The translations under genes were made by a program, and so were the position numbers. The notes beneath the pieces were generated by a model that was given only the letters and a program-made list of their open reading frames with translations, ran no database searches and was not told the DNA's origin. A DNA stretch of 64,000 nt. Source: a bacterium (GTDB lineage Bacteria > SM23-31). The stretch is taken from contig OZ244870.1 in the NCBI GenBank assembly GCA_965221205.1, positions 1,038,065 through 1,102,064 on the forward strand, given 5' to 3'. Below are positions 3,509 to 55,740 of this stretch, piece after piece; the first letter of the stretch is position 1; every line of letters starts with the position of its first letter.

Positions 3509-3512
3509 TCAA

Positions 3513-20802: not shown

Positions 20803-20975
20803 AAGTAAATCTCCAAAAAGGCAAAACATCCAACTTTTTATAAAGTTGAAGTTATGAGCTGAAATATGCGGTTTATTAAACCGATGGTGTATTGTCTTCA
20901 TTCCTTTCTCTTATCCTCTGTGATGATGATCTCCTCAATCGACTTCGGGCCGGTGACGTCAATCGTTTGCTGCTT

Positions 20976-21200: not shown

Positions 21201-21894
21201 ATTTGGAATGATAATGAGTGTAAATGGTTATGCAAGTTGTTTTTATTGACTGCACAACTGTTAGCAAGGTTAAAACATTGTGGTATATGGAGTTACGAAG
21301 ATGATTCGGATTGTTGCTAACGCTTGCTGACGTTCTAACTTCTTATATTTGTATATAGTTATATAGTATATAGTATAGTATGTCAGCAACATTTAATATT
21401 TATATACCTCATACGCGAGAGTATTACTCTGTATGTGTGATTTTTGTATAAATATTTATTTAAATAATAATATATATCTATCTAATTTTGAAGACATGCT
21501 GACAAGCGGTTTTTTTGGGACTTAAACATTATAGTAAACAAATAATTTGAAGGTGTTAGCAAAGATGTTAGCAAACTGGCAAAAATGGGTGAAAAATGGG
21601 GGTTTGTCAGCAACTTTTTGATGTTTTTAATAAAAATTATTATTGTTAAAATTTGTAAGCAAATGGCAGGAAATGGAGTAAAAACTAAAAAGTTTTAAAA
21701 AATTTATTGCAAAAAAAGTTTAATAAATGTGCTACAATGTGTTCGATTGTGTTCAGGAGAGCTGAATTTGTCCGTTATAACAACGCGGTGAATTATTGAC
21801 GGATAAGTTCTATGGTGGTGCTCTGATTTTATAAAGAAATAGTTTGGAAATTTTTTTATTGTTGTTTATATTTAACATTCGAACCTCCTTTGAG

Positions 21895-21969
21895 TGGTGG
21901 AGCTGTGGGGAATTGAACCCCAGCCGTCGGGTGCAAACCCCGATGTCCTCACGCCATGAGAACGGCCCC
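21895..21969 (-). tRNA. tRNA-like element (75 nt) with canonical T-arm and Ala/tmRNA-type 3' end CAGCUCCACCA but atypical D-arm
   Basis: Minus strand reads GGGGCCGTTCTCATGGCGTGAGGACATCGGGGTTTGCACCCGACGGCTGGGGTTCAATTCCCCACAGCTCCACCA; T-stem TGGGG/CCCCA with loop TTCAATT; acceptor has a G3-U pair and one C-A mismatch; anticodon-like loop GTTTGCA; 4 nt D-to-anticodon linker is non-canonical. Confidence 0.35.
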
Positions 21970-22276
21970 GCTTCACAAAAGGTATGGGGAAGTGGAATGT
22001 GTATTGTCTGCTAACAATTGCGTCTCCACTTCCCTTTTATTTTTAGATCTCAGTCAGATTCTTCTATGTCTCCGGCACCTTTTACACCTTTTACCATGAA
22101 AATGACTGGAGGGTCTCTGCAGAAAGAAATAATTTTCTTGACAAAATAATCAAAAAATCCTACATTAAAATGGCACATGGGTACACCTTTTACCTTTCTT
22201 AAGGTGTTCTTATGTCGTTGATTATAAGAGTGGTGCAAGTCTTAGCCCGACAGTGCCACTCTTTTTTTCTAACGGA

Positions 22277-22675
22277 TTAATTTTCGATACTTCTTCGATA
22301 CTTCGTATTTAAGCCAGAACCAGTTTTGTTAACATATCCATTCAGAACAAGTTTCTGCAAAGGTGAATTTACAGAAGCAAGTAAATCTTTTGCTTTAGAT
22401 TTTAATAATCCTTTATCTTTCATTTTTTTAAGTTCATCTCTGAGAGCAGGAGGAGTCCAATCTACTTTGGAGTATTCATCAAATATGTTCTTTATAACAG
22501 CAGAAGTGCCTAATTGCACTCCAGGATCTCCCTTAACATTTGTTGAGGTCTCTTCTGTTGAGGTCTCTTCCAAATTTTCCGTTAAAATTTCTATTGCTTT
22601 TCGAATTGTCTCAGCTTTTTCATTTAACTTTTTCTCTTGTTGTTGCAAGGCTTCGATTATTTCATTATGGCTCAT
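22277..22675 (-). CDS. Hypothetical protein (coiled-coil N-terminus)
   Basis: 132 aa ORF; its ATG lies at the first bases of the 75 bp tandem repeat. Confidence 0.4.
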   Translation of the reverse strand: MSHNEIIEALQQQEKKLNEKAETIRKAIEILTENLEETSTEETSTNVKGDPGVQLGTSAVIKNIFDEYSKVDWTPPALRDELKKMKDKGLLKSKAKDLLASVNSPLQKLVLNGYVNKTGSGLNTKYRRSIEN

Positions 22676-22822
22676 GTCTTTTTGTCCTCTCTTGCTTTTC
22701 TACTTTGTAAATATAATCAATAACTTCTCCATGTCAAGAGTTTTCTTCATGTCTTTTTGTCTTCTCTTGCTTTTCTACTTTGTAAATATAATCAATAACT
22801 TCTCCATGTCAAGAGTTTTCTT
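22673..22822. repeat. Tandem direct duplication, 2 x 75 bp, one mismatch
   Basis: Copy 1 22673-22747 and copy 2 22748-22822 (CATGTCTTTTTGTC[C/T]TCTCTTGC..GAGTTTTCTT); each copy carries on the minus strand a TTGACA-16nt-TATATT promoter-like element and an ATG. Confidence 0.8.
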
Positions 22823-23993
22823 GTTATTTTTAAAACAATAATAAGTATGCTTTGTTTTTGCTATTTGGAATTAGGTGTGTGAATGATAGAAAAATAAAAG
22901 TGGATAAACTCCAGTAAAAATACTACGTATTATTGCTGCAGTCTTATCAATTGTTGTCGGTATTAGTCTTTTAGCTAATAATTCCAATCCAGTATATCCG
23001 CTAATCTGTGGAATATTATTCTTAATTTTTGCAATACCCCATATTAAAAAAATCAGTTTTGGGCAAGAATTAACATATATAACATCCCAATATTACTTTA
23101 CATAGCAATACTGGTGAAGAAGTATCATTTAAAGAAGAGTCAAAAATGAAGTTTTTAGTAGATAAGAAATTTGAAGAGGTGGACACCTGGTGCACAGGAA
23201 CAGTTACAGGATTTAAATCAAATTTAGGAGAAATAACTGAACAAGGTTATGATTTAGATGGTAAGTTACCCTTGCGATTGAATTATGATATAGTCCAGAG
23301 AAAAACGACCAGTAACTAAACCAACTGATTTTCTTAGCATTACTGTTATTTTCCCAGATAATAGAAAATGGAAAGGTTATAAAGGTAGATATGAAGGTAA
23401 AAATACAAAAATCAAACTTCATGAAATCCAGCCTCAACCCTCTAAAATGGATGAAAAAGATTGTTTAATATGGGAAATTGATAAACCTAAATTAAATCAC
23501 AAATATAAACTTGAATGGACATGGTATATTGTCATACAGTCTCTTGAATGCGTTTTTTTCGCCTCTCCCTGAGCGCTTCGATCAATAACATTTCAACTGT
23601 ATTTGAAAACATCCGGTTGTCACGTTCGGGTCGGCGTAGTGATTCGACTTCGTTATTTACTCGCTCTTCAAGACGGATTGTTCTGTGTATTTTAGTCATT
23701 GTACTCGCCTTCTATTCTTCACCAAATATGTATTGTACAGGTATGCCTACGGCACGAGTCGACATGCCAGGTTCAAAGCGTATTAATTTCACACTTTTAG
23801 TTCCATCGATGCGCAGCAGCACGTTCTTCCAGCCAGTATGCCAGGCTGTGTCCTTGAGCAGCTTCCGTTCGACCACCAGCTCTATATTCTTTACTCATCC
23901 GGTATAAAAGGGACTCCTAAATGTATCGTTCATAATGCCGGCGGAACACTCCTTCAACATTTTAAAAAAGTCGCTCTCTATACAATTATTGTA

Positions 23994-29049: not shown

Positions 29050-30396
29050 ATGCTAATGAGAAATCAGTCTATACTATTAATAGCCGCTGTTGTATGCATT
29101 CTTTGTACTGGAATAGTTCCTAATGCGTATGGTCAAGGCGACTTATATATAAACAATGCCACAATTATTACCGGTACCGGAGAAACAATAAACAACGGCT
29201 CGATCCTTATCCGTTCCGGTAAAATCGCCCGGATCGGCACTGGTTTCAGTGTCCCGGCAGGAGTTCGGGTAATTGATGCAGCAGGTCTCTATGCAATGCC
29301 GGGAATCATTGACCACCATTCCCATATTGCGGCTAACGGGTTGAATGAAGCAACTTCGCAAAATTCTGCTATGGTGGATGCGTCGGATGTCATCCAGCAC
29401 GATTCTTACAGTATTTATGCCTCTCTGACCGGCGGCACGACGACAATCCATGTTCTACATGGAAGCGCAAATAATATCGGCGGCAAAGACGAAGTTCTCA
29501 AACTGAAATGGGGACAGCCGTGGGAAGCGATGATTGTCCCGGATAAGATGGAGGGAGTTAAGTTTGCGCTCGGTGAAAATCCTATCAGGAGAGAGACCCG
29601 CTATCCCAACTCACGTATGGGACAGGAATTTCAGATCAGAAGTTACCTGATGCAGGGACTCGATTACAAAGCGAAATGGGATATGTACGAAGCAAAACTC
29701 GCAGGAGATCGGCCGCCGGCAAACGAGTATGAGCGGATAAACGGACCGGTACCGCCCAGAAAAGACCTCCGGCTCGAAACAGTAAAAGGTGTCCTGGAAG
29801 GTACAATTCGTGTTCACAGCCACGGCTACAGTAATTCCGAATTATCGATGCTTCTGCGTTTGCTCAAAGAGTTCGGCATTGCCCCACACAGCCTTGAACA
29901 TGCGCACGAAGCCTATATGCTCGCAGATGAAATTGCCGAAGCAGAGACGGTTGTATCGATGTTTATTGATTTCTGGAATTACAAAGTTGAATCTTCCCAG
30001 GGGTCGTTTTTTGCGGCATCATTGCTGACCGAACGAGGTGTAAAGGTAGCATTAAACTCCGACGATGTTGGTTCCGCTGAGCGTGCCCGGCGGTTGAATC
30101 TTGAAGCCGCAAAATCGATGCGGTATGGCGATGCAATGACGGAAACAGAAGCAATCAAAGCTATCACCTACAATCCCGCATACGGATTAAAACTTCACAA
30201 CAGGATTGGAACACTCGAAGTCGGCAAGGACGGCGATGTCGGATTGTGGGACGGTCATCCACTCTCTGTCTACAGCAAATGTGTCAAAACAATTATTGAA
30301 GGGGATGTCTATTTCGACAGAGATACAGCACTAACGACCGAGAAGTGGTTGAAGGGGGAAAAACCGGACTGGAAAGCTATGGGAGGTGGCCAATGA
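29050..30396 (+). CDS. Amidohydrolase family protein (secreted)
   Basis: Signal peptide; canonical metal-binding PGIIDHHSHIA motif. Confidence 0.75.
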   Translation: MLMRNQSILLIAAVVCILCTGIVPNAYGQGDLYINNATIITGTGETINNGSILIRSGKIARIGTGFSVPAGVRVIDAAGLYAMPGIIDHHSHIAANGLNEATSQNSAMVDASDVIQHDSYSIYASLTGGTTTIHVLHGSANNIGGKDEVLKLKWGQPWEAMIVPDKMEGVKFALGENPIRRETRYPNSRMGQEFQIRSYLMQGLDYKAKWDMYEAKLAGDRPPANEYERINGPVPPRKDLRLETVKGVLEGTIRVHSHGYSNSELSMLLRLLKEFGIAPHSLEHAHEAYMLADEIAEAETVVSMFIDFWNYKVESSQGSFFAASLLTERGVKVALNSDDVGSAERARRLNLEAAKSMRYGDAMTETEAIKAITYNPAYGLKLHNRIGTLEVGKDGDVGLWDGHPLSVYSKCVKTIIEGDVYFDRDTALTTEKWLKGEKPDWKAMGGGQ

Positions 30397-31718
30397 AGAA
30401 AGGATATCAGGGAATTATCACATTTGCAAGTATGTTCATGTTAGCCACTGCGGCATTCGGACAATATGCTGTAACAAAGGCAACGATCGTTACGGTGTCG
30501 GGAGGTACCATAACGAATGGAACAATCGTGATTGAAGGAGACCGAATCGCCGTTCTTGGGACAGATATTGTGCTTCCGCAGGGAATCGAAGTTATTGATG
30601 CTACAGATTTGTATGTCTATCCCGGAATGATCGGTACAAACACCAATCTTGGCCTTACAGAACTGGGTGGTGTGACGCAAACTCAAGACCAAAGAGAAAT
30701 TGGAACCTTCAATACCTTTATCCGTGCATCGCAGGGAGTCAATCCACATACAATATTGAAAGGTATTGCCCGCTGGAATGGCGTAACGTCTGCAATTACT
30801 GTTCCCCGAACAGAGAAACAGGGAGTCTTTGCAGGACATGAAGTGCTTCTGAATTTAGACGGATGGAGTGTTGATGAAATGACGGTACAGGACCCGGTAG
30901 CGATGCAGATGACATTTCCGGACTTTAACCGGAATTCAGGTGGTAATAATGGAGAAGATCTTCCCCGACAGCTGGAAGCCCGCGGCGGCAGAAAGAACAG
31001 GCGTAATCGTGCCGAAAAAGTCCTGTCGGACGTTAAAGAATTGTTCGAAAAAACACGGCGCTATTCCCAGGCTCAGGCCGATTTTGAAGCACGAATACGC
31101 TCGTCATATCCGGTTACCGATCTGACGTTGGAAGGTTTGAAACCGGTTGTGCGGAAAGAAGTTCCGTTAACGATTACCGTGAATGGTGTCGAAAACATCC
31201 GTAAAGCGATCACATTTGTAAAGGAGACAGGAATCCGTGCGGTTTTTGCAGGTGCACAAGACGCCTACAAAATAGCAGAAGAAATCGCCGAAGCTGAAAT
31301 ACCGGTTCTCTATTCAGGTCTGCTCACTAAGGCTGATCAATATAATCCCTACGACCTCCATTTGACGGTCCCGTCAGTACTCCATAAAGCCGGAGTCACA
31401 ATTGCAATGTCGATAGCAAATGCATCTGATTTACAGAATCTCCCGTTTATGGCAGGAATGGCAGCCGCATACGGACTGCCGAAAGATGTTGCTTTGAAAA
31501 CAGTGACGCTTTATCCTGCTGAAATATACGGAGTGGATGATAAGCTTGGCAGCATCGAGGTGGGAAAAATGGCAAACATAGTTATTGCAGATGGTGACCT
31601 GCTCGAGCCACGCACAAAGGTCATTCATGAATTTATCCGTGGTCAGAAAGTCGACCTGTCAGATAATTACCAGTTTCAGCTCTACGAAAAACACCGAAAA
31701 CGCCCGGCTAAACATTGA
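30393..31718 (+). CDS. Amidohydrolase family protein, likely non-catalytic paralog
   Basis: Start taken at ATG 30393 (MKKGYQG), overlapping the upstream stop by 4 nt; PGMIGTNTNLG replaces the HxH metal-binding motif. Confidence 0.7.
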   Translation: MKKGYQGIITFASMFMLATAAFGQYAVTKATIVTVSGGTITNGTIVIEGDRIAVLGTDIVLPQGIEVIDATDLYVYPGMIGTNTNLGLTELGGVTQTQDQREIGTFNTFIRASQGVNPHTILKGIARWNGVTSAITVPRTEKQGVFAGHEVLLNLDGWSVDEMTVQDPVAMQMTFPDFNRNSGGNNGEDLPRQLEARGGRKNRRNRAEKVLSDVKELFEKTRRYSQAQADFEARIRSSYPVTDLTLEGLKPVVRKEVPLTITVNGVENIRKAITFVKETGIRAVFAGAQDAYKIAEEIAEAEIPVLYSGLLTKADQYNPYDLHLTVPSVLHKAGVTIAMSIANASDLQNLPFMAGMAAAYGLPKDVALKTVTLYPAEIYGVDDKLGSIEVGKMANIVIADGDLLEPRTKVIHEFIRGQKVDLSDNYQFQLYEKHRKRPAKH

Positions 31719-33597
31719 AACTTATTTATTACATAGTACGACAACAAATAATCGATGATACCAGAATTAAATTCCTTGTGGGGCAAAGATAAATTTTATA
31801 AATTTGAATATTGTGTAGAATCTATTGAGTAACTTATTGGCAAGCTACATATCAATTATGACAAGGAATACTTTATGACGAACGAGCTCACTTTTAGACT
31901 TCGTTGTCTCTGGGCAGTTTGCGCACTAAAATGGTGGTGACATTTAATTTTTCCTAAAAGCATCACAATTTCTGATATACCATGGAAACCATTGGAAGGC
32001 TATTCCAAATTCTAAGCGAAAAAATAGTAAATTCCCTTTTAACGGTAGTTACCCTCATAAAATGATCCACTGATTAACGTTATACAATATTGACCATAGT
32101 TGCCGGGAGTATGTACATTAAATTTGGCATCACAGAATAGCAACAATATCTTAATACATTTAAATCATATCTATTTTTCTCAAAGAACCTCAGAGTTTTC
32201 ATACTACAAAGAGAGATCAATAAATTGAATATCGTTTTTTCAATTTTACATAGAACAATTGGGAGGATATATCATATAAATCATCTCTTTTTTCGCAGTC
32301 AAGACCCCGTTCATAGGCAGTTTCCGAATCATACGTATAAAGCGATTTGAAATGATACCTGTTACTCCGTATCCGAAATAGTATCTTAATTCTTTTTTTG
32401 TCTGCTTCGCTCTTCAGAAACCGGATCGATTATCCCATGCTTTTCACAAAAAATAGAAAATGAGAGTACTGCTGCAAGAACGAGACTCCTCCCGATACTG
32501 CCAATTTTTTTAAAGTAACCTATGGACTGTTTCAAAAGGTCCTGAGCGAAGAAGACCGTGACCGCCTCAAGCAGGACCAGGTTCCCAATCGTCATGCCGC
32601 CATACACGGCTTGGTGGTCTATTCCTCACCGCAGAACAGTTTGAATGCGATTTTCATAGCCGATTACATTTTTCGGATTGTTACTCCCGCCATGTTCCCT
32701 CCATCACCTCGGCAATGATGCTCCCGCACCGATCAGCATTGCATAAAGATATCGCCAATCGAATCTCTCCTGCAATACCGATTTGCAACTCCTGAACCCT
32801 TGAAAGCCTGTCCGGGGCTGGAGGGTTGCGTAACCGCTCCTTTGTGCAACCCCTCCCCGGACGGGAAGCAAAACTGAGGTAATCTGTAAGGCCATGAAGA
32901 ATCCGGGATGTTATCACCACTTGCGCGTGGACTGGGTAGGAAAGTCGTCCACCCAGTCGATCGCGCTGTGCGGCGTCGAGGGTGAAGACATCGGGGCAGG
33001 ACAGGCACTCTGCCCCGACTGCTGTGGGTTGGGACCGGAGAGCCTACGCGAGTTATTTGACAAGCTCCGGGTGACAGCCCTTCCGCGGTAAAAGCGAAGA
33101 TGGAGGTGCTTCGAAGTCTGGGGGTGCAGGTGGATATGCAGGATCGGTCGCAATTCAACTAAAAGAGTGTCTCTACGGCCCTAGGAGGCCCTGCTTACCT
33201 CCTAAAAGCCCCTCTTTTTCTGTGTTTCCGATTTCTCTGGTTTCTACTTCCTGTTCTTCCACAGAAGTAGTCGAGGTTTTGCGCGAGTTGAAGAAGATTA
33301 AGCTGGCCTGGCCGAAGCTGAACTACGCGACGGCTTCGGGCGTCTTGATTCTGCATCCCTTGACACCGATCATCGCGCCGTTAGATCAAGGCCAGCTAGG
33401 CCGGCGGCCGCTCATCTCCCCGTTTTCAACGCAGGGATCGCCCCTGACGCCTCCGTACCCGATTCATCTTTAGATGATTTCGGCCGGCATCGTCACGAAA
33501 TTCTTCTCGGTATATCGGGATACAGGGCATGGACCTATGTCGTTGCGATCGAACCACATCGCGTTCTGCAACCATACTGTCGTCGACCGCTCGGCTT

Positions 33598-36411
33598 TCA
33601 AGCGCCGCCAATGCCCGCGTGGCGTGAAAGAATGCTCTGAATATCACCGGGGGCTCTCGATATATCCCCTGCCCAGCGGCCAAAGCCGCCATGCGCGTTG
33701 ACGGCGGTGATCCATTCGTCGAGAAACCGGCGTTTGGTTCGGTCCTGTTCGCTGTCCTGTCCCTTGGTTTCCAACACGAGTATGTCGCCGGACCTGAACC
33801 GGATGAGGAAGTCGGGACGGTACTTCCGCACCACGCCGCGATGGACGTAGAACACTTCGAAGCCCAGGTGATCGTTTTTCACCCAGGCGGCGACCTCGGG
33901 GGCGTGATCGAGGGCAAAGGCTTCCGACGATTCCCAGGTGCTGTCATAGACGCAGAAATTGATATGGCTGCGCGCCGTGGGCTCGCAGGGCCTGCCGGTG
34001 TACCATGTCCCCATGTCGCCGGTTGAACGGATGGGCCGGTCCCGGTCGAACACCGGCTCCAGACTCTCGGTGTTCTCGAAGCGGATGGCTTCCCAGATAT
34101 GCTGGACCACCTTGGTCATGTTGAGCGTGATGATGAGACGGCGCTTGAGATCGTCGCGGAGGAATAGTGCAGGCGTGATGCTGATTCTGTCCGAACGGAT
34201 GAATTGATCGACCAGCCGTACCAGTTGGGCCAGCAGGAATGCTTTGCCTCCCCGCCAGTTCTTTTGCATTTGGTCGTAAACGTCCCGCGCGGTCTCAAAG
34301 ATAATCCGCTGTGTCCGAAACTCCCGCGCCAGATTCTCCAAGTCTATAGCCTCGATCTTCGTCACGTCCGGTTTGCCGGCGACGATTGGGGCAAGCTCCG
34401 CGATTCTTACGGTCCTGCCAACATCGAGTTCCAGGCTTGCCACCTTGTTCCAATCCAGGGAGAGCTGCGGTCGGTATACGTGGTCGATGCGGATCACGTT
34501 CGGCCAAGAGATTTCGAAAGCCGCTTTGCCCGTTACCGGCTCAATAGCGGTCTTTGGCGTTGGCGGCGGTGGAGGGCCGCTCTCTCCACCTTCGTGGGGC
34601 AGAAAAGTGAAGGGCACGCCGAAAATATTGACGTACTCCGGCTCGAACAAACCGTTGTTCGGGTTCACATCGTAAGATGTGCGGCGCAGGCCGCGTCCGA
34701 CGACCTGTTCACAGAGAAGCTGGCTGGTGAACGCGCGGAGGCCCATGATGTGTGTCACGGTCTTGGCGTCCCATCCCTCGGAAAGCATCCCGACGGAGAT
34801 CACATTCTGGATCAGCTCGCCCGTTTTCCCAGGTTGGCCCACGGTGTTCACCTGCGAGCGCAGCAGCTCGGCTTGCTGTTTTTTGGTTAGCTTGCGTGAG
34901 GGGCCGCCGTTCGCAGCTTCTTCGCTCTCGCCAGCGCCGATCTCCGCGATCGGCTCCTCGGCGGCCTCGGCCGCGTCAAGTACCCTTGAGTCGATATGAA
35001 GGGTTCGCGCCGGGTCGCAAAGCTCGCTGATACGGACTCTGCTGTGGTCGAATGCGTACTTGATCCGGGCTGCGGTCTCGGTGCGATTGGCGACGGTGAT
35101 CATCACTGGCGGGGTTTTGGACCCGTCCTTTCTCCATTGCTTAGATGTCTCGCGCCAGTCGAAGCCGAGAAGGCAGTAGCCATTGACCACCAGGTCCGGC
35201 AGCGGTTCTTCGGGCTTGGCCCGCCGGTTTAAGTCGTCCTTGACCTCGGCATCGTTGTAGATGTGGTAGAGGCGGGATTTGTAGGTCGTGACGTCAGGTA
35301 CCGCATCGTCGCGAATCACGACGCGTGGGGTCTTGACCAAACCGGACTCGATGGCGTCGTTCAGGCCGAAGTCGCTCACGATCCAGCCGAACAGCGCCTC
35401 CTCGGAACTCCGTTTACCCGATGGCGCGAAGGGCGTGGCGGAGAAGTCGCAGCAAGCGAGAATGCCCCGCGCCCTGTCGATCCGATCCAGGCCGCCAACC
35501 CACTTGGTCGCTTCCTCGATTTCATCCCTGGCAACACCTTTGACCTTGGATTCGGCGGGAACGCGCCAGGCGTGATGCGCTTCGTCATTGATGACAAGAA
35601 TGTTCCGGGCGTTCGCCAAGTCGCCCAGAACCTCGCGGACATAGGCTTCGTCGCTCTTGGATCTCCGTTTATCTACGCTGCGTTTTCCGGCAATCCTCTC
35701 ATCGGTCTCCCAATTGAGTGCGTGCCAGTTGCGGACCACGACCTTGCCTTGGCGCAGCTTGTCGAACAGGGACGACGGAACGACGTGGAAAGCTTTGTAG
35801 TAGTTCTCCGCATGAGACGGTTCCAAGACGGCCAGACGGTTCTTGACCGTGAGTCCCGGAGCGATAACCAGCACGTTTCGGGCGAATCGCGCATCCTGGG
35901 AATAGGTGACCTTGTTCAGGATATGCCAGGCGATGACCATGGCCATGACGACGGTCTTGCCCGAGCCGGTCGCCATCTTTGCGCACAACCGCCCAATCGG
36001 CCCGCCATCGGAAGGGATGTCAACGCCAATTTTCTCGGCCGCTGACGCTTCGGCAAGCCAGATCAGCGTCTCGACAGCCTCCAGTTGGCAGAAGAAAAAT
36101 CGACGGTTATCGAACTCCTCCGGGTTCGTCCAGTGCTCCAACAGCCGCTTCGTAATTCCCGTGACACCCGGATACCCGGCTCCACGCCACGCCCGTACAC
36201 GCGGACGAATCCGGTTGACCAGGGGAATCTCGACGAAATGGCCCGGATCATCGAACGATCGGGAGCCCTCCGAGGCAATGACGTATCCGGCCGGCCGGCG
36301 GCCTTGCGCACGGTCGAAAAGGCGCGTCTGGCGGTCGTAGCTCCAGTGTTGGCCCGGCTCCTCGTAGGGAGAGTTGATAATCAGGCGATCGATGGTTGTT
36401 TGCGCCATCAT
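33598..36411 (-). CDS. res: Type III restriction enzyme Res subunit
   Basis: Walker A ATGSGKTVV, DEAH box VINDEAHH, helicase C-terminal motifs; start ATG 36411 (MMAQTTIDRLIINSPYEEP) overlaps the hepT stop (ATGA); inside the GC-rich island. Confidence 0.85.
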   Translation of the reverse strand: MMAQTTIDRLIINSPYEEPGQHWSYDRQTRLFDRAQGRRPAGYVIASEGSRSFDDPGHFVEIPLVNRIRPRVRAWRGAGYPGVTGITKRLLEHWTNPEEFDNRRFFFCQLEAVETLIWLAEASAAEKIGVDIPSDGGPIGRLCAKMATGSGKTVVMAMVIAWHILNKVTYSQDARFARNVLVIAPGLTVKNRLAVLEPSHAENYYKAFHVVPSSLFDKLRQGKVVVRNWHALNWETDERIAGKRSVDKRRSKSDEAYVREVLGDLANARNILVINDEAHHAWRVPAESKVKGVARDEIEEATKWVGGLDRIDRARGILACCDFSATPFAPSGKRSSEEALFGWIVSDFGLNDAIESGLVKTPRVVIRDDAVPDVTTYKSRLYHIYNDAEVKDDLNRRAKPEEPLPDLVVNGYCLLGFDWRETSKQWRKDGSKTPPVMITVANRTETAARIKYAFDHSRVRISELCDPARTLHIDSRVLDAAEAAEEPIAEIGAGESEEAANGGPSRKLTKKQQAELLRSQVNTVGQPGKTGELIQNVISVGMLSEGWDAKTVTHIMGLRAFTSQLLCEQVVGRGLRRTSYDVNPNNGLFEPEYVNIFGVPFTFLPHEGGESGPPPPPTPKTAIEPVTGKAAFEISWPNVIRIDHVYRPQLSLDWNKVASLELDVGRTVRIAELAPIVAGKPDVTKIEAIDLENLAREFRTQRIIFETARDVYDQMQKNWRGGKAFLLAQLVRLVDQFIRSDRISITPALFLRDDLKRRLIITLNMTKVVQHIWEAIRFENTESLEPVFDRDRPIRSTGDMGTWYTGRPCEPTARSHINFCVYDSTWESSEAFALDHAPEVAAWVKNDHLGFEVFYVHRGVVRKYRPDFLIRFRSGDILVLETKGQDSEQDRTKRRFLDEWITAVNAHGGFGRWAGDISRAPGDIQSILSRHAGIGGA

Positions 36412-36602
36412 GCAGTCTCCGGTAGCACCAGCGGTTCGATGAGGTTGATGAGACGGGGAATGTCCTGTTGTGCGGTCTTCCACACATGCTTCAGGTCAAC
36501 CTCGAAATAGGCGTGTACGAGGCGATGTCGCATCCCAGCGAACTCCACCGCACCCCGCGCTGCCAGCAGCATGTCGAGCAGACAGGCATCGTCATGCCGC
36601 AT
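36408..36602 (-). CDS. HEPN-domain toxin (HepT/DUF86-like), short form
   Basis: R-x4-H-x-Y motif in GMRHRLVHAYFEVDLKHVW; start overlaps the mntA stop. Confidence 0.55.
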   Translation of the reverse strand: MRHDDACLLDMLLAARGAVEFAGMRHRLVHAYFEVDLKHVWKTAQQDIPRLINLIEPLVLPETA

Positions 36603-36903
36603 AGATCGTCTCGGCGGATTGGAGGATTGCGGCACGGCGAATGTAGTTTCGGCTCTGTTCGACCGCCGTGCGTTCGAACAGGTCTACCTCCCGGCCGAGT
36701 ATCCGAGCCAGATCGGCCTGCATTCGCGCCATGTCCAGAAGTGTGTGGCGCGCTTGTTGCTCGAAACGCACCAGTACATCCACATCGCTTTCCGGTCCGA
36801 AGTCGTCCCGTAGCACGGAACCGAACAGCGACAGTTCGACGATCCGCCAGCGTTTACAAAAGTCGGCTATCTCGTCTCGCGGTGTGTCGATATGTACACT
36901 CAT
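36592..36903 (-). CDS. Nucleotidyltransferase (MntA-type antitoxin)
   Basis: GS-x9-DxD motif LFGSVLRDDFGPESDVDVLV; start taken at internal ATG 36903 immediately after the upstream stop at 36906-36908. Confidence 0.7.
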   Translation of the reverse strand: MSVHIDTPRDEIADFCKRWRIVELSLFGSVLRDDFGPESDVDVLVRFEQQARHTLLDMARMQADLARILGREVDLFERTAVEQSRNYIRRAAILQSAETIYAA

Positions 36904-36905
36904 GC

Positions 36906-37748
36906 CTATAACACTTGGTTCGCGTCGACATTGAAGCCGACACTCTTTAGCTCCCGAATAAGTCTTAGCTTCCAACCATCCGAGCCGTCCAACGGAATGT
37001 AAATGACTCCATCATAGTCCGAGGGCGTCTCTACGTTACCTTTCACCAAAGTGCAGACTCGCTCTCGACCGAGTTTGCCAATGAAGTACCCGAATTCGAA
37101 AATCACGTTCTGTCTCGCCCGTGGCTTTTGATTCTTCTTGTCGTCCGCAAGCGCGCCCACGTCGTCCGGGGTCAGCAGGACCACCGCGAACCCAACTTGC
37201 GCATGTTCCTCAAACTTCTCGATGATCGTGCGGCCCTTATTCGGTTGTTCGTGCAGGATTACCGGTTCAAGATCCAGCCTTTCTAGGAATCTTGCAACCG
37301 TTCTCCGAGCAGATTCGTCGTGGCCATGGATGACGAAAACTCTGTTACTGCTCGATCGTTTGTCGATTCGTTCCGAGTCAAGCGCTGAAATGTCACTTTG
37401 ATCTATGGGTTGCGTTGGCGTCTGGTTTTCATCAGACCAATACTCCTCGATCTCCTCGATCATGGATTCGAGTACTGCGGCCGCTGATTCCAAGCCTTTC
37501 ACATAAACTTCCTGGCGTTCTGACTCAGGCGGCTCAAAGTAGGCAGGGGCAGGAGAAAAACGGATATTTTTGAAGTCTCCAATGTGGGCCGACTTGCTCT
37601 CAAACGTGTTGGTGATAGCGACCTCTGTGTTTCTTTGCCACTTATCAAACTCAGGTGAGCGGTACTTTAGGTTTTTTAATTTGGGTATTGCATCCAATGC
37701 TCTCCGCAGGCGCTCCAGACCCTTGGCTTTTATTGGTCGCGCCATCAC
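36906..37748 (-). CDS. TIR-like nucleotide-binding protein (COG4271/PF10137-like C-terminal domain) with unknown N-terminal domain
   Basis: C-terminal block RVFVIHGHD..FAVVLLTPDD..ARQNVIFEFGYFIGKLGRERV..PSDYDGVIY matches the TIR-like family pattern recalled from memory; start overlaps the Mod stop. Confidence 0.6.
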   Translation of the reverse strand: MMARPIKAKGLERLRRALDAIPKLKNLKYRSPEFDKWQRNTEVAITNTFESKSAHIGDFKNIRFSPAPAYFEPPESERQEVYVKGLESAAAVLESMIEEIEEYWSDENQTPTQPIDQSDISALDSERIDKRSSSNRVFVIHGHDESARRTVARFLERLDLEPVILHEQPNKGRTIIEKFEEHAQVGFAVVLLTPDDVGALADDKKNQKPRARQNVIFEFGYFIGKLGRERVCTLVKGNVETPSDYDGVIYIPLDGSDGWKLRLIRELKSVGFNVDANQVL

Positions 37749-40133
37749 TCCACCTCCACCACTTTTAAGCTCTCGATGCCGCGGTCGTCGACGATCTTGA
37801 CGGTGATGCGCCGGTGTCCGCCGACTTCGAAGGGGAGGGAGGACGTCCCGCGATAGGCCTCAACCAGGTCTGTGTCGATCTCGGCCTTGAGATTCCGGGC
37901 GAGTTTTGCCCAGCCGTCCCTGCTGCCCGCCATGGGAAAAAACACCTGGCGGGGAAACAGGCTGCGCCCGTCATAGTCCGGATCGAGCATCCACATAGCG
38001 ATCTTGTCCGAGCCGCCCGATTCCACGTTGCCGGTCTTGGTGTTGTAATAGTCGAATCCTTGGACCGAGACGCGGAACTTGCCCTGGTCTTCGCCTTCCT
38101 TGATCCGCTCGACTTCCATGTCCGGCTGGCCGATCAGCCAGAAGCTCTCGTTGCTTGTCCGCTTCTTCTTGAGGTCGTCGGTCAGCAAATCGGCGTTCAT
38201 CTGCACTTTTAACAAGGTGGCGCCAGGCCAGCGGGTTTCGTCGATGTCCTTGGGACGCTTCGGGATCGAACTGGAAGGCCGCAAAGACGATAACCTTGGG
38301 TCGTGGGGCAAGACTTTGTGCCTCCTCGATGGCGCGTGCCACCTGCCGCTGCTCCAGCGGTGCATGATCCGGCCCAAACGAGACCACGAGCCGTTCCGGA
38401 TTGCGGGTGGTAGCGGGGTCTTGAAAGCCGTCCGTCCCCGCATCGCCGGGCCGCGTCTCGCCCTCGGCGTGCAGCCATCGGGTTGCGGGCAGCGGTTCCA
38501 GCCGAGCAAATGAGATTCGCTGCCCGTCCTTGCCGCGAATGCCGGTCTTGAACAACTCGTCGCGCCAGTCGCCTTGGCGCACGGTCGGTCCAGTACGCGC
38601 CACGGAGGTGTCTGCCGGCAGTGCCTCGGACTCTTCGATGTCGTCCAGGGGCTTCACCGTTGGCGCGGGAACCGCTTCCACGGTGAACGGTCCGGTGACA
38701 CGGGCTTTGCGCCGGTTGATCTCCGGTTGATCGTAGAGCGTGGTCTCGTTGGGCGGTTCGTCATAGCCCAAAGTCTTCGCCGATACGGTGGCGACGCTGT
38801 GGTAACGAAAACCGGCCCCAACTCCTTCGTCAGGATGGGCCAGTTTGTAGTAGTGATAGTTCGCCGTCATGAGGCGCTGCTTGGCCAAGACTGTCGCGAC
38901 GCGCGATGTGTCGCAGGTGATCCATCTTCTGCCCCATTGCTCGGCGACGTGGGCAGTGGTACCGCTGCCGCAGGTTGGGTCAAAGACCAAATCGCCCGGA
39001 TCGGTGGTCATCAGGATGCAGCGCTGAATCGCCTTGTTAGCGGTCTGGACCACATAGTGCTTGGCACTGGGCGACATTGGTGCTGCCCAGATGTTGTTGA
39101 TTGGTCTCCCCGGAACCTCATCTTCATACCGTTTCCACATCAGTGACGTCTGGTTCCCCAGGGCTTCCAACCGACCTAGTTCGGCGAGTCGGTCTATTCC
39201 CTCTTTGGAAATGCGCCATTGGCTGTCCCTGCTACAACGAAAGACGCGACCGTCATATTCATAGGGTTCGGAGCGCGCAACCGTGGAAACACCCTGCGAT
39301 TCAAGGGGCATACGGCGATAAATGCGCCCGCCCTCCGGCAAGTGCTTGTCTGGGTCGAAGCGTTCTTCGGGGGTGGGTTTACGGCACTGGCCGTCAGGCA
39401 GTTCGACACTCACATATGAACTGAAAAACTCGATCACCTCGGCCCGCGTGAGCGACTCATACAATTGCCGGTATTTCACAAGCCCTCGGTCTCTGGCATA
39501 CCACAACAGATAATCCGCAACTTGGGGCAAGGTCTTAGCAGGACTGTTGCCGGTGGTCGCGTAGGAAATGGTTGCCATCCGGTTCTCTGCGCCGAAGATG
39601 TCGTCCATGACTAGGCCGACGCGGTGGATATTTTCGTCGCCGATCTGCACGAAGACACTGCCGCTCTCATGCAGCAGCTCGCGCGCCAACAGCAGGCGGT
39701 CGCGCAGATAGGCGAGATACGAATGGATGCCGAGTTCCCAGGTATCGCGGAAGGCGCGGATCGTCTCCGGCTCCTGGGTCAGGTCCTCGTCCCTGCCGTC
39801 GGTCACGGTGCGCTGGTTGACGAATGGTTGGAAGTTCGAGCCGTAGCGGATGCCGTAGGGCGGGTCGATGCGCTCATGGACGTGCAGGGATACGGTGGGG
39901 ACTTCGAACGAGGTGTGCTCGTCCTTCCCGGCCCAGACGAGCTGCGGATCCAGGTGCGGATCGTAAGCGTAGGTTGTCTTGCCCGCATCCTTGTCGGTCT
40001 CCGGTGTCACCAATCCGACAGGCGGGTTGTTCACACGCTCCTTGCCAGTGTGCGTGTAGTTTTCAACCTCACGCTTTTTTCTGTTCTTCGGTCCCGCTAT
40101 GTCGTTCCCCTTAACTTCGGTCTCTGTCTCCAA
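37745..40133 (-). pseudogene. mod: Type III DNA methyltransferase Mod, apparent +1 frameshift near 38252
   Basis: ORF 37971-40133 carries DPPY, NIWAAP and FDPTCGSGTT motifs, then turns into Arg-rich nonsense after ..FQFDPEA; ORF 37745-38509 continues in another frame with a Mod-like C-terminus; junction at a GGG run (plus 38252-38254). Confidence 0.7.
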
Positions 40134-40172
40134 GAGAGTGGAGTGATTTCAACCTCACGTAATATATCTGCC

Positions 40173-40490
40173 TCAACTTTTGAGGGCACGGTCAGCATCA
40201 AGGTTTGTTATTTTTTTCATACGTCCACTCTCATCAAAGAATTTTCCAATATCATACGTAAGTGAGTTTTTCATTACCTTCAATACATCATCAGCCTGAA
40301 GTTCAACTCGTTCTTTTCGTTCCTCCGGAGCATTCGAAATGAAAGTTTGAATCAGAGATTTTCTCAGGTTTTCATAATCTATTTCACAAGAAGTTTTTTG
40401 CTATACCGAGAAGGCACGGCCGCTGCAGATGCATTAAGATCAACAAGACACTCTTTCACATTCACACACTGGACAATATACGTAGAATAA
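40173..40490 (-). pseudogene. Phage terminase small subunit (TerS-like) remnant, frameshifted
   Basis: Minus-strand frames read ..LVDLNASAAAVPSRYSKK then TSCEIDYENLRK..NAPEERKERVELQADDVLKVM..; frame switch at a T6 run (plus 40394-40399). Confidence 0.4.
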
Positions 40491-40595
40491 TTAAGTAAAT
40501 GAGGAAAATCAAGTAATTTATATTAATGTTGTATAGAGGGTTTATAATATTACTTAATTAAGTCAATGGTACTTAATTATTTGTTTAGATAAGTT

Positions 40596-42017
40596 CTAAA
40601 TCTTTCCACATATTTTCCACATATATTTATTATCTGTTTTGGGTAATGGTTTTTCATATCCTCTTTCCTGCAGCAATTTGTTGAGTGTTCTTTTTGTCAC
40701 TGAGTACTCATTGTTTTCATCACACCAATGTTTGTACTTTTCATAGACCATTTTAACCGGTGTCATTACACATGCAACATTTTTGCAACAGTCACTTAAA
40801 AAACTACCAATAACATCAGAATCTGAACGATATTCTTTTGTTGCATTTTCAACGGATGCTGGAATTATCACCTTCCACATATATAATAATCCCGGAATCC
40901 AGTTATCGCCCAATTCAGGATTCCAGGCAGCTCATTTCTGAATATGTTGAGCAATTCTGATTTAGGTCTTCGATTATTTTTTCGGAATTCCAACGGTAAA
41001 CGGGAGCTTACGCATTCTACGCCAGAAACCCTCAGTCGGTTGCGTGTACCCGTGGTTCATCATTTCCAAACATCCACAATTTATGTACTGGCTTAAATTC
41101 GAAAGTATATCGTTCCAAATGTGCCATTTCTTTGAACTATGGTTGTACCGTATTTGGTCGCCGAAATTGAATGCAAGAAAATCAGCGCTCCAAGTGTCAG
41201 TTGGTGAAAACTTGTCAGAATCATTCGTGGGTTTCAACGGCCGACCATTTTTCTTATCTTCAGGTTCTGGCTTCGGCTTATCGGACGGTTTCCAGAATGG
41301 AGTATCTCTGACGAGTTCGGTCAGCTGGTCTTTGGTATCACCTGCTTTTATCCAATCTGTGATGTCCTGCTTCGGCTGGCAGGTCCGGGAGTCTCAAAAT
41401 TATTATGTCTGCGGCAGATCTATGAAGTTTTAAGGCGATATCTTCGGAACGCAATCGTCCAGGGTCATCGTTATCCGGAATAATAACAACGTTAGCTTTA
41501 TGCAGCCAGGTAGAAAAGGCGGATTCCCAATTTCCGGCGCCACTGGAATTCGCCGCCGCGAACCCGAGAGATTCGAGCGTGTGTACATCCTTCTCGCCTT
41601 CGACTATGAATATAGACCTGCCTTTTTTAACAGCTTCCAATATCTGGGGGAGTCGGTATATAACATGCTTAACACCACGGATATTCCAGATCAACCCTCC
41701 GGGGCCATCAGGTTTTCTCAGTCTGAATTGTTTATCTTTCAGGCGGCACGCCTGGTACAATAAAGCGCCGTTTTCATCGATGTAATCATATGGTTTCTAT
41801 GATATTTGACTTTCTACATGTTCAGACCTATGGACTTAACTATATCTTCCGCAGGACAGCCTGCATGACAGCGCATGAGAACCTTACCTTCTTTGTCGGC
41901 AACGGATAAAGAGGGGGTCTTATCGTCATGGTATGGACAATGTGCTTGATAAGATCCGTTTGATTGTTGTTTTGGGTTTTTTAAGTGAGATAGTACATGG
42001 TCAATACACGCAGTCAT
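40596..42017 (-). pseudogene. Phage/plasmid DNA primase (CHC2 zinc finger + Toprim + C-terminal domain), fragmented
   Basis: Four ORF-track pieces: 41814-42017 (CPYHDDKTPSLSV..CHAGC), 41338-41760 (Toprim IFIVEGEKDV..VVIIPDNDDPG), 40974-41237 and 40596-40913, in frames 2/0/2/2. Confidence 0.6.
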
Positions 42018-42241
42018 TATTCCTAGTCCTTATTTTTATGTAAGTTTCGATCTATTTGTTGAGATACATATCACCTTGCAATAAGCTGCTGTATAAACAT
42101 TCTTGCATAATCATCCCTGTTTTGCTATATTACGGCGTAATTCAGCACCTCAGCATATCGCTTTGTAAAGTGTTGTTTTTATAAGTATATAGTGAATGTT
42201 ATAAGGCTGGATTTTACTACTTCATAACGGAGGATATATTC

Positions 42242-54794: not shown

Positions 54795-54858
54795 CAAAAA
54801 ATGATTTTGAATATCGAATTATTTTCTTAAATAATATATCTTTAAATATTCAATATGA

Positions 54859-55723: not shown

Positions 55724-55740
55724 AGTTGCGTTGACAGAAT

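What the first reader, a model, noticed from the sequence alone, without database searches (positions are those of the whole stretch)
32700..40140. GC-rich island of about 7.4 kb carrying the second defence locus
Composition changes sharply at about 32700 and 40140; the interval is visibly GC-rich and Arg-rich antisense ORFs fill every frame. The island carries Type III mod and res, a TIR-like protein and a HepT/MntA pair, and abuts phage remnants (40173-42017). The first 0.9 kb (32700-33597) has no convincing ORF. This indicates horizontal acquisition from a higher-GC donor.
Basis: partly seen in the sequence, partly recalled or inferred. Interest (0 to 1): 0.75.

Follow-up and report, generated by a model that had tools for sequence, protein, structure and literature searches.

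The report
Acquired, partly decayed restriction-modification island
The GC-rich stretch is a real piece of foreign DNA: a widely travelling restriction-modification operon that carries extra defence genes between its two subunits. It was inserted into this bacterium's lineage and is already partly broken, so it is a well-documented but fairly ordinary genomic island.

Summary
Window 32750-40140 is 58.5% GC against 43.7% for the rest of the window, and island GC3 is about 0.72-0.74 against 0.47 for host genes. Horizontal acquisition is supported: three more distant relatives (L005, L007/L008, L090) have an empty site, and four close strains carry the island. The unit that inserted is larger than the GC block, about w32273-42228, and is flanked by an 11-bp direct repeat. 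It also includes the primase remnants. The GC-rich core is an operon, mod-TIR-mntA-hepT-res. Its Res belongs to the curated BPTD_3080 family, which is 69-85% identical across more than 15 mostly high-GC phyla. In this window the methylase has lost its ATG, 72 codons and its reading frame, and HepT lacks 49 residues. Res, TIR and MntA look intact. The 0.9 kb downstream of Res is non-coding. In 59 of 74 related loci, varied cargo genes sit between mod and res, and close strains of this host carry different cargo. That extends the known 'embedded defence gene' pattern to a Type III-like carrier. Verdict: a real island and a new member of a known kind, of moderate interest.

The parts
32262..32272 (.). 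Left copy of the 11-bp direct repeat GGAGGATATAT that marks the left edge of the inserted DNA
   Evidence: Empty-site genome L005 has one copy, which is the ribosome-binding region of the M24-like gene. Window homology to L005 stops here and resumes at w42229.
32273..32749 (-). AT-richer left end of the insertion (GC 0.44), containing a conserved 73-aa ORF of unknown function at 32386-32607
   Evidence: Absent from empty-site genomes. w32356-32749 is present in L004 and L089 at 96-98%. The ORF has no Pfam or NCBIfam hit.
32750..33597 (.). GC-rich non-coding tail downstream of res, probably decayed donor DNA; the first ~85 nt after the res stop are shared with a Bryobacterales locus
   Evidence: No ORF, Pfam or Rfam match and no similar plasmid DNA. 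Substitutions against L004 are spread evenly over codon phases (10/13/11) and there are indels. w32039-33368 is missing from strain L006. Family-wide homology ends at the res stop.
33598..36411 (-). res: restriction subunit of 937 aa, apparently intact
   Evidence: NCBIfam NF046055 (BPTD_3080 family restriction endonuclease), 1126 bits against a cutoff of 800, covering the full length. Pfam ResIII 8.5e-09. dN/dS is 0.23-0.25 against L004 and L006, and the length equals that of the orthologues.
36408..36602 (-). hepT remnant of 64 aa with an in-frame internal deletion of 49 residues
   Evidence: Pfam HepT-like matches only profile positions 82-118 of 120. Alignment to eight intact cargo HepTs shows the gap. 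The same deletion is present in L004 and L089.
36592..36903 (-). mntA-type nucleotidyltransferase of 103 aa, intact
   Evidence: Pfam NTP_transf_2 2.2e-14 and PADLOC PDC-S09 3.2e-24. NCBIfam MntA scores 41.3 bits, below its cutoff of 60. The gene carries a ~217-bp deletion in L004 and L089.
36906..37745 (-). CAP12-type TIR-domain protein (279-280 aa), intact; this is the cargo gene directly after mod
   Evidence: Pfam PF10137 2e-42 and PADLOC PDC-S35 2e-91 over the full length. It keeps 72 of the 73 columns that are at least 90% conserved in 23 homologues, including E218.
37745..40100 (-). mod pseudogene (the family norm is about 859 aa): ATG changed to ATA at 40100-40098, a 216-bp in-frame deletion at about 39860, and a +1 C frameshift at 38254-38252
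   Evidence: tblastn of the L004 Mod splits across two frames and residues 44-115 are missing. Nucleotide alignments show the deletion lies between two copies of ATCGACCCGC. The independent contig L002 confirms the first two lesions.
40141..42228 (-). AT-rich remnants (GC 0.39) of a primase-helicase gene (Toprim and D5 fragments); part of the same insertion
   Evidence: Pfam Pox_D5 1.5e-10 and Toprim_2 6e-4. L004 retains additional D5_N and Zn-ribbon fragments. The region is absent from empty-site genomes.
42229..42239 (.). Right copy of the 11-bp direct repeat, now serving as the ribosome-binding region of the M24-like gene (ATG at 42242)

Best explanation
The GC-rich segment is a horizontally acquired Type III-like restriction-modification operon. 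Its Res belongs to the curated BPTD_3080 family. Its gene order is mod-TIR-mntA-hepT-res, with the three small genes nested as cargo between the two subunits. It lies inside a ~10-kb insertion (w32273-42228) that landed between the ribosome-binding site and the start codon of an M24-like peptidase gene and duplicated 11 bp there. The insertion happened after this lineage split from relatives that still have the empty site.

When intact, the system would work as follows (inferred from family knowledge). Mod methylates host DNA. A Mod-Res complex cuts unmethylated DNA. The co-transcribed cargo adds a second line of defence: a TIR effector that probably hydrolyses NAD+, and a MntA/HepT toxin-antitoxin pair.

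In this genome the restriction function is most probably dead. Mod has lost its start codon, 72 codons of its catalytic core and its reading frame, and HepT has lost 49 residues. Res, TIR and MntA remain intact. The Mod lesions are recent, because most Mod divergence was accumulated under purifying selection.

The highly conserved mod and res genes appear to act as homology arms, so that cargo and alleles are exchanged by recombination. That would explain why near-identical strains carry different cargo.
For: Shown by tool results:
- Composition and codon shift.
- Empty site in L005, L007/L008 and L090; island present in L003/L004, L006 and L089.
- 11-bp direct repeat located exactly at the homology breakpoints.
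- Family assignments.
- 552 Res relatives, with the best 80 at 69-85% identity across more than 15 phyla.
- Module GC equals host GC in 66 species (mean difference -0.004), but is +0.166 in this window.
- Family homology runs exactly from the Mod start to the Res stop.
- Mod lesions, two of them confirmed by the independent contig L002.
- HepT deletion.
- Res under purifying selection and TIR conserved.
- Stop/start overlaps between genes, read from the sequence.
- Slot survey: 59 of 74 loci hold at least 480 bp between mod and res, with recurring cargo families.
- The strain-level cargo swap is bounded at the mod stop and the res start.
- L089's TIR gene is a chimera.
- Mod dS of 0.30-0.32 with omega 0.12-0.18, against host dS of 0.03-0.07.

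Inferred, not shown: enzymatic activities, co-transcription, and recombination as the exchange mechanism.
Against: - The +1 C frameshift sits in a CCC run in what may be a long-read assembly. No independent contig covers it, so it could be a sequencing error.
- The reading frame stays open upstream of the lost ATG as far as a TTG at 40133, so loss of the start codon alone need not abolish translation.
- Res matches canonical Type III Res models only weakly (PADLOC 2e-07 over 42 residues) and has no solved-structure match by sequence. 'Type III' therefore rests mainly on Mod and on gene order.
- No integrase or transposase is present in the window, so how the 10-kb element inserted is unknown.
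- No donor above 85% identity was found.
- No expression or activity data exist.
Confidence: 0.8

Rival explanations
1. Assembly artefact: a fragment from a high-GC organism in the same sample was wrongly joined into this genome.
For: The source appears to be a metagenome-derived assembly. The Logan contigs from run ERR13605531 break at w32759, exactly at the GC step, and at w39841. The module is shared by many taxa, which could tangle assembly graphs.
Against: Contig L002 runs uninterrupted from inside the island (w39841) across the right GC boundary into host genes at 100% identity. Four other assemblies from different samples (L003, L004, L006, L089) place the island between the same host genes. 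The insertion has a clean 11-bp duplication relative to the empty sites.
Confidence: 0.03
2. The system is still functional: the frameshift is a sequencing error and the shortened Mod, translated from an alternative start, still methylates DNA, so the locus is an active restriction-modification system with cargo.
For: Res is intact and shows purifying selection (omega 0.23-0.25). The frameshift is a single base in a short homopolymer. An upstream in-frame TTG exists. Pfam still matches most of the methylase domain, profile positions 6-214 of 221.
Against: The 216-bp deletion is confirmed by an independent contig. It removes residues 44-115 of the orthologue, and residues 83 onward belong to the core that aligns to the solved Type III Mods EcoP15I and 6K0W. 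The lost stretch includes the conserved NRLIAGDSLL segment and the strand that leads into DPPY. The purifying-selection signal in Res reflects history shared with other strains, not current function.
Confidence: 0.08
3. The GC-rich block and its AT-rich neighbours arrived separately: an IS-flanked composite transposon delivered the operon into an older, already decayed primase-bearing element.
For: GC differs sharply inside the one insertion: 0.39-0.44 for the ends against 0.585 for the core. In L004, two direct copies of a ~176-bp fragment (~90% identical; the downstream copy overlaps a 48-aa ORF with a weak HTH_Tnp_1 hit, and the upstream peptide looks IS3 OrfA-like from memory) bracket the operon and its tail at L004 9465-9640 and 18250-18424.
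Against: Both IS fragments are absent from the window. No relative with the primase element but without the operon was found. The bracketed segment also includes AT-richer DNA. This idea refines the best explanation rather than replacing it.
Confidence: 0.3
4. The differences between strains reflect in-place decay of one ancestral insertion (deletions only), not repeated recombination with outside alleles.
For: Several differences are plain deletions: MntA in L004 and L089, the HepT core in all strains, 216 bp in the window's mod, and pieces of the primase remnant.
Against: L006 carries 3.5 kb of unrelated cargo (an AAA ATPase, an S8 peptidase and a 219-aa protein) in the same slot. TIR alleles are 45% identical with saturated dS. 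Mod dS (0.30-0.32, omega 0.12-0.18) exceeds even the host dS to the island-free species L005, about 0.2. L089's TIR gene is a chimera of two alleles.
Confidence: 0.05

Closest known systems
Type III restriction-modification systems (EcoP15I type)
   Same: mod lies upstream of res on one strand. Mod has DPPY before the FxGxG-type motif, and its best solved-structure matches are Type III Mods (6K0W at 5.8e-16, EcoP15I 4ZCF at 1.8e-13). PADLOC MTase_III scores 5e-147. Res has a ResIII helicase-like domain and, at its C-terminus, a sequence motif that fits a PD-(D/E)xK nuclease (RPDF...LETKG).
   Different: Mod is about 859 aa, with an extra conserved C-terminal region of about 170 aa. Res is barely recognised by canonical Type III Res models and has no solved-structure match by sequence. 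Most family members carry one to several extra genes between mod and res.
NCBIfam NF046055, BPTD_3080 family restriction endonuclease
   Same: The window's Res scores 1126 bits (cutoff 800) over the whole profile, so it is a member by the curated criterion.
   Different: No difference at sequence level. I found no paper describing this family's biochemistry.
Defence genes embedded within multi-gene defence systems ('guilt-by-embedding', Payne et al., bioRxiv 10.1101/2024.01.29.577857)
   Same: Small defence-type genes, co-oriented with the carrier, are nested between the carrier's subunits. The window's TIR and MntA match PADLOC models from that study (PDC-S35, PDC-S09).
   Different: That study analysed Hma, BREX, DISARM and Type I R-M as carriers. 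Here the carrier is a Type III-like mod/res pair. The slot sits precisely between the mod stop and the res start, and close strains show cassette exchange.
MntA/HepT type VII toxin-antitoxin systems
   Same: An MNT-type nucleotidyltransferase is followed by a HEPN/HepT ORF that overlaps it by 11 nt. The R-x4-H-x-Y end of HepT is retained.
   Different: HepT lacks 49 central residues, and both proteins score below the NCBIfam equivalog cutoffs. The pair is nested in an R-M operon rather than standing alone.
CBASS Cap12 and Pycsar PycTIR effectors
   Same: They share the PF10137 TIR domain (2e-42), including the conserved glutamate in the NVIFE motif.
   Different: No cyclase gene is nearby. Cap12 equivalog scores (35-40 bits) are far below the cutoff of 450. 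The N-terminal ~130 residues are unrelated and of unknown function.

Membership tests
Horizontally acquired genomic island | Composition and codon usage differ from the host | tested here: met
   GC 0.585 against 0.437. GC3 0.72-0.74 against 0.47 +/- 0.05.
Horizontally acquired genomic island | Absent from the orthologous site in related genomes | tested here: met
   L005, L007/L008 and L090 have amidohydrolase, ECF sigma and the M24-like gene with no island.
Horizontally acquired genomic island | Junction signature (direct repeats) and mobility genes | tested here: inconclusive
   The 11-bp direct repeat is present. There is no integrase or transposase in the window, only primase remnants, plus IS-like fragments in L004.
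Type III restriction-modification | mod followed by res in one operon | tested here: met
   Same strand, mod upstream, with overlapping or near-abutting stop and start codons through the cargo. Eleven of 74 family loci have mod and res directly adjacent.
Type III restriction-modification | Mod is a DPPY-type N6-adenine methyltransferase related to known Type III Mods | tested here: met
   Met for the family (L004 allele): PADLOC MTase_III 5e-147, and solved-structure matches 6K0W and 4ZCF. The window's own copy is a pseudogene.
Type III restriction-modification | Res combines an SF2 helicase-like ATPase with a PD-(D/E)xK nuclease related to known Type III Res | tested here: inconclusive
   Pfam ResIII 8.5e-09. 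The nuclease is supported only by a motif read from the sequence and a weak TnsA-like hit (4.6e-06). PADLOC REase_III gives 2e-07 over 42 residues. No solved-structure match at E<=0.01.
Type III restriction-modification | ATP-dependent cleavage that needs Mod for target recognition | not testable with these tools
   This is biochemistry.
BPTD_3080 family restriction endonuclease (NF046055) | Score above the curated equivalog cutoff over the full length | tested here: met
   1126 bits against 800; residues 8-931 match profile positions 2-969 of 970.
MntA/HepT type VII toxin-antitoxin | Full-length HepT (about 115-130 aa) with the HEPN fold | tested here: not met
   Only 64 aa, matching Pfam profile positions 82-118 of 120, with 49 residues missing. 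NCBIfam scores 25.6 against a cutoff of 60.
MntA/HepT type VII toxin-antitoxin | MntA nucleotidyltransferase directly upstream and overlapping HepT | tested here: met
   Pfam NTP_transf_2 at 54 bits, with an 11-nt overlap with hepT. The NCBIfam MntA score of 41.3 is below its cutoff of 60.
CBASS Cap12 / Pycsar TIR effector | TIR domain of the PF10137 type | tested here: met
   2e-42, covering profile positions 1-118 of 119.
CBASS Cap12 / Pycsar TIR effector | Partner cyclase (CD-NTase or Pycsar cyclase) in the operon, and an equivalog-level match | tested here: not met
   No cyclase lies between or beside mod and res. Cap12 equivalog scores are 35-40 bits against a cutoff of 450.
PADLOC candidate PDC-S35 | Full-length match to the candidate's model | tested here: met
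   2e-91, residues 9-279 against profile positions 5-262 of 264. I did not find PDC-S35 named in the main text of the source preprint, so its defence function counts as untested.
Embedded defence genes (guilt-by-embedding) | Co-oriented genes nested between the subunits of a multi-gene defence system, and variable among relatives | tested here: met
   59 of 74 loci hold at least 480 bp between mod and res. Of cargo ORFs of 100 aa or more, 102 of 126 are co-oriented. Four cargo variants occur among strains that are 96-99% identical.

The most novel reading that the evidence does not exclude
The mod/res pair of the BPTD_3080 Res family is a cross-phylum carrier platform for defence genes that has not been described as such. 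It has a dedicated slot, bounded exactly by the mod stop and the res start, which holds interchangeable cassettes: TIR, MntA/HepT, AAA_15/AAA_21 ATPases with partners, DUF2806, a pair of an unannotated 284-aa protein and DUF5131, an AAA ATPase with an S8 peptidase, and an ImmA/IrrE-type peptidase. The unusually conserved mod and res sequences would act as homology arms that allow cassettes to be swapped between unrelated bacteria, somewhat as an integron does but without an integrase.
Probability: 0.45. Interest if true: 0.55.

Novelty: new member of a known kind. Interest (0 to 1): 0.4.

Why it matters
For this genome, the practical point is that the 'second defence locus' should not be scored as a working restriction system. 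It is a recently acquired island that is already decaying, and at most the TIR protein is likely to be active.

More generally, the locus gives a clean natural example, with empty sites and four strain variants, of how defence genes move. A restriction-modification operon that is 69-85% identical across more than 15 phyla usually carries extra defence genes between its two subunits, and closely related strains exchange them.

If the slot behaviour holds up in a systematic survey, 'guilt-by-embedding' would extend to Type III-like carriers. That would supply a new set of candidate defence genes and a testable model for cassette exchange by homologous recombination.

Tried and rejected
1. Structured RNA in the ORF-less 0.9 kb: Rfam at gathering threshold on the whole window, and at E<=1 on w31700-33700, gave nothing. 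Folding w33250-33597 gave z = -2.0 and -0.5. Rejected as unsupported.
2. Decayed gene in the 0.9 kb: Pfam on all ORF fragments found nothing meaningful. Weak translated hits to other loci were low-complexity Arg/Pro strings. Mild third-position GC periodicity exists, but substitutions against L004 show no codon-phase bias, and 4 of the 5 changes in the best frame alter the amino acid. No similar DNA occurs in plasmids. What it once was remains unknown.
3. tRNA or integrase at the junctions: the only tRNA in the window is tRNA-Gln at 21895-21969, and no integrase was found.
4. Direct repeats at the compositional boundaries (32700 and 40140): nothing convincing. The real repeat lies at 32262 and 42229.
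5. Terminator scan downstream of res: none found.
6. Remnant of the ECF sigma gene seen at empty sites: none at this site, only a paralogue at w11086-11685.
7. Wider occurrence of the conserved tail after res: two exact-pattern scans of JGI metagenomes found nothing, and among the fetched loci only L009 shares it.
8. Exact-protein look-ups for the window's Res, TIR and 720-aa Mod ORF returned nothing.
9. Literature on BPTD_3080: no paper found.
10. Naming a donor: the best outside matches are 85% for Res (Bryobacterales) and 83-84% for Mod (unnamed metagenome contigs). That is too distant, and the family too promiscuous, to name a donor.

Full report
OBSERVATION.

A sliding GC profile confirms a sharp plateau. 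GC is 0.29-0.48 at w32100-32700, then 0.54-0.61 from about w32750. It stays at 0.50-0.70 until about w40100 and drops to 0.26-0.40 beyond w40200. Segment w32750-40140 is 58.5% GC against 43.7% for the rest of the window. No 1-kb window outside the insertion exceeds 54.2%, and outside 7.4-kb windows average 0.428 (sd 0.022, maximum 0.471).

Codon usage shifts with it. GC3 is 0.742 for Res and 0.72 for the N-terminal Mod segment, against 0.470 +/- 0.052 for 21 host genes. The TIR gene is intermediate at 0.577. The many overlapping antisense ORFs are the usual by-product of GC-rich coding DNA.

GENE CONTENT. All genes are on the minus strand.
- Res, w33598-36411, 937 aa. It matches Pfam ResIII and is a full-length member of NCBIfam NF046055, 'BPTD_3080 family restriction endonuclease' (1126 bits, cutoff 800).
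- Mod. It matches N6_N4_Mtase and PADLOC MTase_III (5e-147 for the L004 allele). Its best solved-structure relatives are Type III Mods, 6K0W and EcoP15I 4ZCF.
- Between mod and res lie a CAP12-type TIR protein (PF10137 2e-42; PADLOC candidate PDC-S35 2e-91), an MntA-type nucleotidyltransferase (PDC-S09) and a HepT fragment.
- The genes are tightly packed. The mod stop and TIR start overlap by 1 nt. There are 2 nt between TIR and mntA. mntA and hepT overlap by 11 nt. hepT and res share an ATGA (read from the sequence).

STATE OF THE GENES.

Thousands of Mod homologues are 76-91% identical and about 860 aa long, yet only 75% of the window's 720-aa ORF aligns to them. Compared with the orthologue in strain L004, the window's mod has three lesions:
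1. The ancestral ATG is now ATA (w40100-40098).
2. A 216-bp in-frame deletion lies between two copies of ATCGACCCGC (about w39860). It removes residues 44-115, fusing 'HVHERIDP' to 'PYGIRYG'.
3. One extra C in a CCC run (w38254-38252) shifts the last ~170 residues into another frame.

The deleted stretch overlaps the core that aligns to solved Type III Mods, which starts at about residue 83. Lesions 1 and 2 are present in an independently assembled contig, L002, which is 100% identical over w39841-51784. Lesion 3 has no independent cover and could be a sequencing error.

HepT is 64 aa. It lacks 49 central residues compared with eight intact homologues, and it matches only positions 82-118 of the 120-position Pfam profile.

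Res has the same length as its orthologues and evolves under purifying selection (56 of 98 substitutions at third positions; omega 0.23-0.25). TIR aligns end to end with 23 homologues and keeps 72 of 73 strongly conserved columns, including E218.

From what is established for Type III enzymes, Res needs Mod to recognise DNA. Mod can therefore decay without killing the cell, and restriction is lost with it. This step is an inference.

THE 0.9 KB WITHOUT ORFS (w32750-33597).

There is no Pfam, Rfam (E<=1), plasmid or terminator match. Similarity to 80 family loci from other species ends at the res stop. Substitutions against L004 are spread evenly over the three codon phases (10/13/11) and there are indels. 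Strain L006 lacks w32039-33368 altogether. The stretch is non-coding and dispensable, and is most simply read as decayed DNA that arrived with the operon.

WAS IT ACQUIRED?

Searching with a host flank gene (the amidohydrolase at w30393-31718) gave a ladder of relatives.
- Genomes whose flank protein is 88% (L005), 75% (L090) and 68% (L007/L008) identical have amidohydrolase, an ECF sigma factor and then the M24-like peptidase, with no island.
- Four assemblies from other samples at 96-97% (L003/L004, L006, L089) carry the island between the same genes.

At nucleotide level, L005's intergenic DNA is split in the window. L005 12512-12703 matches w32086-32273 and L005 12692 onward matches w42229 onward. 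The 11-mer GGAGGATATAT is present at both w32262-32272 and w42229-42239, but only once in L005, where it is the ribosome-binding region of the M24-like gene.

The inserted DNA is therefore about w32273-42228 (9.96 kb). The GC-rich block is one module within it. On one side is an AT-richer left end with a conserved 73-aa ORF. The ECF sigma gene found at the empty sites has been lost without trace.

In L004, two direct copies of a ~176-bp fragment bracket the operon. The downstream copy overlaps a 48-aa ORF with a weak HTH_Tnp_1 hit, and the upstream peptide resembles an IS3 OrfA from memory (not scanned here). This hints that a composite transposon delivered the GC-rich module into an older element. 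Both copies are deleted in the window.

SOURCE.

A scan of one genome per species found 552 Res relatives. The best 80 are 69-85% identical and come from Bryobacterales, Nitrospirales, Latescibacterota, Alphaproteobacteria, Poribacteria, Chloroflexota, Rhodothermales, Gemmatimonadota and others.

In 66 of these loci the module's GC (mean 0.601) equals that of its flanks (mean difference -0.004, sd 0.041, maximum +0.164). In the window the difference is +0.166. This fits a recent arrival from a ~60% GC background with no amelioration. No specific donor can be named. The host itself appears related to candidate division KSB1, but only from 43-56% identical named hits.

THE CARGO SLOT.

Family-wide similarity runs exactly from the Mod start (about w40044-40090) to the Res stop. 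In 74 loci with mod upstream of res, the two genes are adjacent in 11, separated by 118-384 bp in 4, and separated by 485-7,491 bp in 59.

The slot holds recurring families, mostly co-oriented with the operon:
- the TIR protein (22 loci);
- MntA with HepT;
- TIR with a gap of 1.42-1.50 kb (10 loci), which corresponds to the window's ancestral TIR+MntA+HepT layout;
- a 55-100-aa protein with a 139-aa partner;
- AAA_15/AAA_21 ATPases with partners;
- DUF2806;
- a pair of an unannotated 284-aa protein and DUF5131;
- an AAA ATPase with an S8 peptidase;
- an ImmA/IrrE-type peptidase;
- occasional transposase-sized ORFs, not confirmed by any family scan.

Among near-identical strains of this host the slot differs:
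- window: TIR, MntA and the HepT remnant;
- L004 and L089: a different or chimeric TIR, an MntA remnant and the HepT remnant;
- L006: an AAA ATPase, an S8 peptidase and a 219-aa protein.

The L006 swap is bounded at w36402 and w37741, that is, at the res start and the mod stop.

Divergence is mosaic. Host genes have dS 0.006-0.07 among these strains. Res has dS 0.04-0.09. Mod has dS 0.30-0.32 with omega 0.12-0.18. TIR dS is saturated, and the two TIR proteins are 45% identical. Mod dS even exceeds the host dS to the island-free L005 (about 0.2). The alleles therefore diverged elsewhere under selection and were brought in by recombination. The low omega also means the window's Mod lesions are recent.

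COMPARISON WITH WHAT IS KNOWN.

Nesting of defence genes inside multi-gene defence systems is established for Hma, BREX, DISARM and Type I R-M, and 96.7% of embedded genes are co-oriented with the carrier. The PDC-S models that match the window's TIR and MntA come from that work (bioRxiv 10.1101/2024.01.29.577857). Type III-like carriers were not analysed there, and I found no paper on the BPTD_3080 family.

The window's locus is therefore a new member of known kinds: a genomic island, a Type III-like R-M system, and embedded cargo. The slot behaviour of this particular carrier is a modest extension of the embedding pattern.

RIVALS.
- Misassembly is very unlikely. Four independent assemblies from other samples, a contig spanning the right junction and a clean duplication all argue against it.
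- A still-functional system is unlikely because of the confirmed 72-codon deletion.
- Decay-only evolution is contradicted by the unrelated cargo in L006, the TIR chimera in L089 and the Mod dS.
- Two-step assembly of the insertion (an IS-borne operon entering an older primase element) is plausible and compatible with the main account.

VERDICT.

Horizontal acquisition from a higher-GC source is supported, with four corrections: the boundaries of the insertion, the integrity of Mod and HepT, the nesting of the cargo inside the operon, and the island's distribution among strains. Interest is moderate.

Noticed in passing
window 33514-33597 (minus strand, just after the res stop); L009 12836-12917: About 85 nt after the res stop are better conserved between this genome and a Bryobacterales locus than the last 40 nt of res itself. 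They include a hairpin with one apparent compensatory pair (GCGGTCGA/TCGATCGC against GCGGGCGA/TCGCTCGC). The wider stretch w33250-33597 is only 1.4% diverged from L004, against dS 0.087 in res. Its function is unknown.
   Followed up: partly
window 32759 and 39841: Logan contigs from run ERR13605531 are 100% identical to the window but break exactly at the GC step (the contig covering w22793-32759) and about 20 nt from the mod deletion junction (the contig covering w39841-51784). This suggests branching in the assembly graph, caused either by strain variants or by other taxa in the sample that share the operon.
   Followed up: partly
window 30393-31718: The amidohydrolase gene next to the island has dS 0.112 against strain L006, while its two upstream paralogues have dS 0.006-0.013. 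This looks like a recombination tract reaching from the island into the host flank.
   Followed up: no
L004 17625-20869, L006 11643-14642, L089 2088-5323 (replacing window 32039-32355): Close strains carry an extra ~3.2-kb AT-rich segment with an AIPR-family abortive-infection-type gene (PADLOC MzaE 1.3e-69, AbiU 3e-27). The gene is split in L006 and L089, and L089 also has an HNH gene there. The window has 318 bp instead, including the ancestral intergenic piece and the left repeat.
   Followed up: partly
window 31721-32085: The ECF sigma factor gene and a 70-aa ORF present at all three empty-site lineages are replaced in the window by 365 bp of unrelated AT-rich DNA. The island-bearing clade has therefore lost a regulator at this locus.
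   Followed up: partly
window 16541-18105: A Type II restriction-modification pair (N6_N4 methylase 4.7e-51 and a BglII-family endonuclease 5.2e-27) sits in a low-GC patch (about 0.30-0.32). This is a second compositionally foreign defence locus, of opposite GC bias.
   Followed up: no
window 3432-5360 (and the ORF at 56-2674): A second Type III-like methyltransferase (PADLOC MTase_III 1.5e-57; 26% identical to the island's Mod) lies after an 872-aa ORF that has no PADLOC hit.
   Followed up: no
window 20500-23500: A low-GC stretch (0.31-0.39) surrounds the only tRNA gene in the window (tRNA-Gln, 21895-21969). Strain L006 differs from the window between about w21078 and w22915, so this may be another variable island next to a tRNA.
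   Followed up: no
L003/L004 10055-10067: The 'intact' Mod of strains L003 and L004 carries its own +1 G (GGGG against GGG) near the N-terminus, so it is called at 822 aa. Removing the G restores an 859-aa protein. It could be real or a long-read homopolymer error.
   Followed up: partly
window 54500-56500: Another low-GC patch (0.31-0.36) with strong positive GC skew. Not examined.
   Followed up: no
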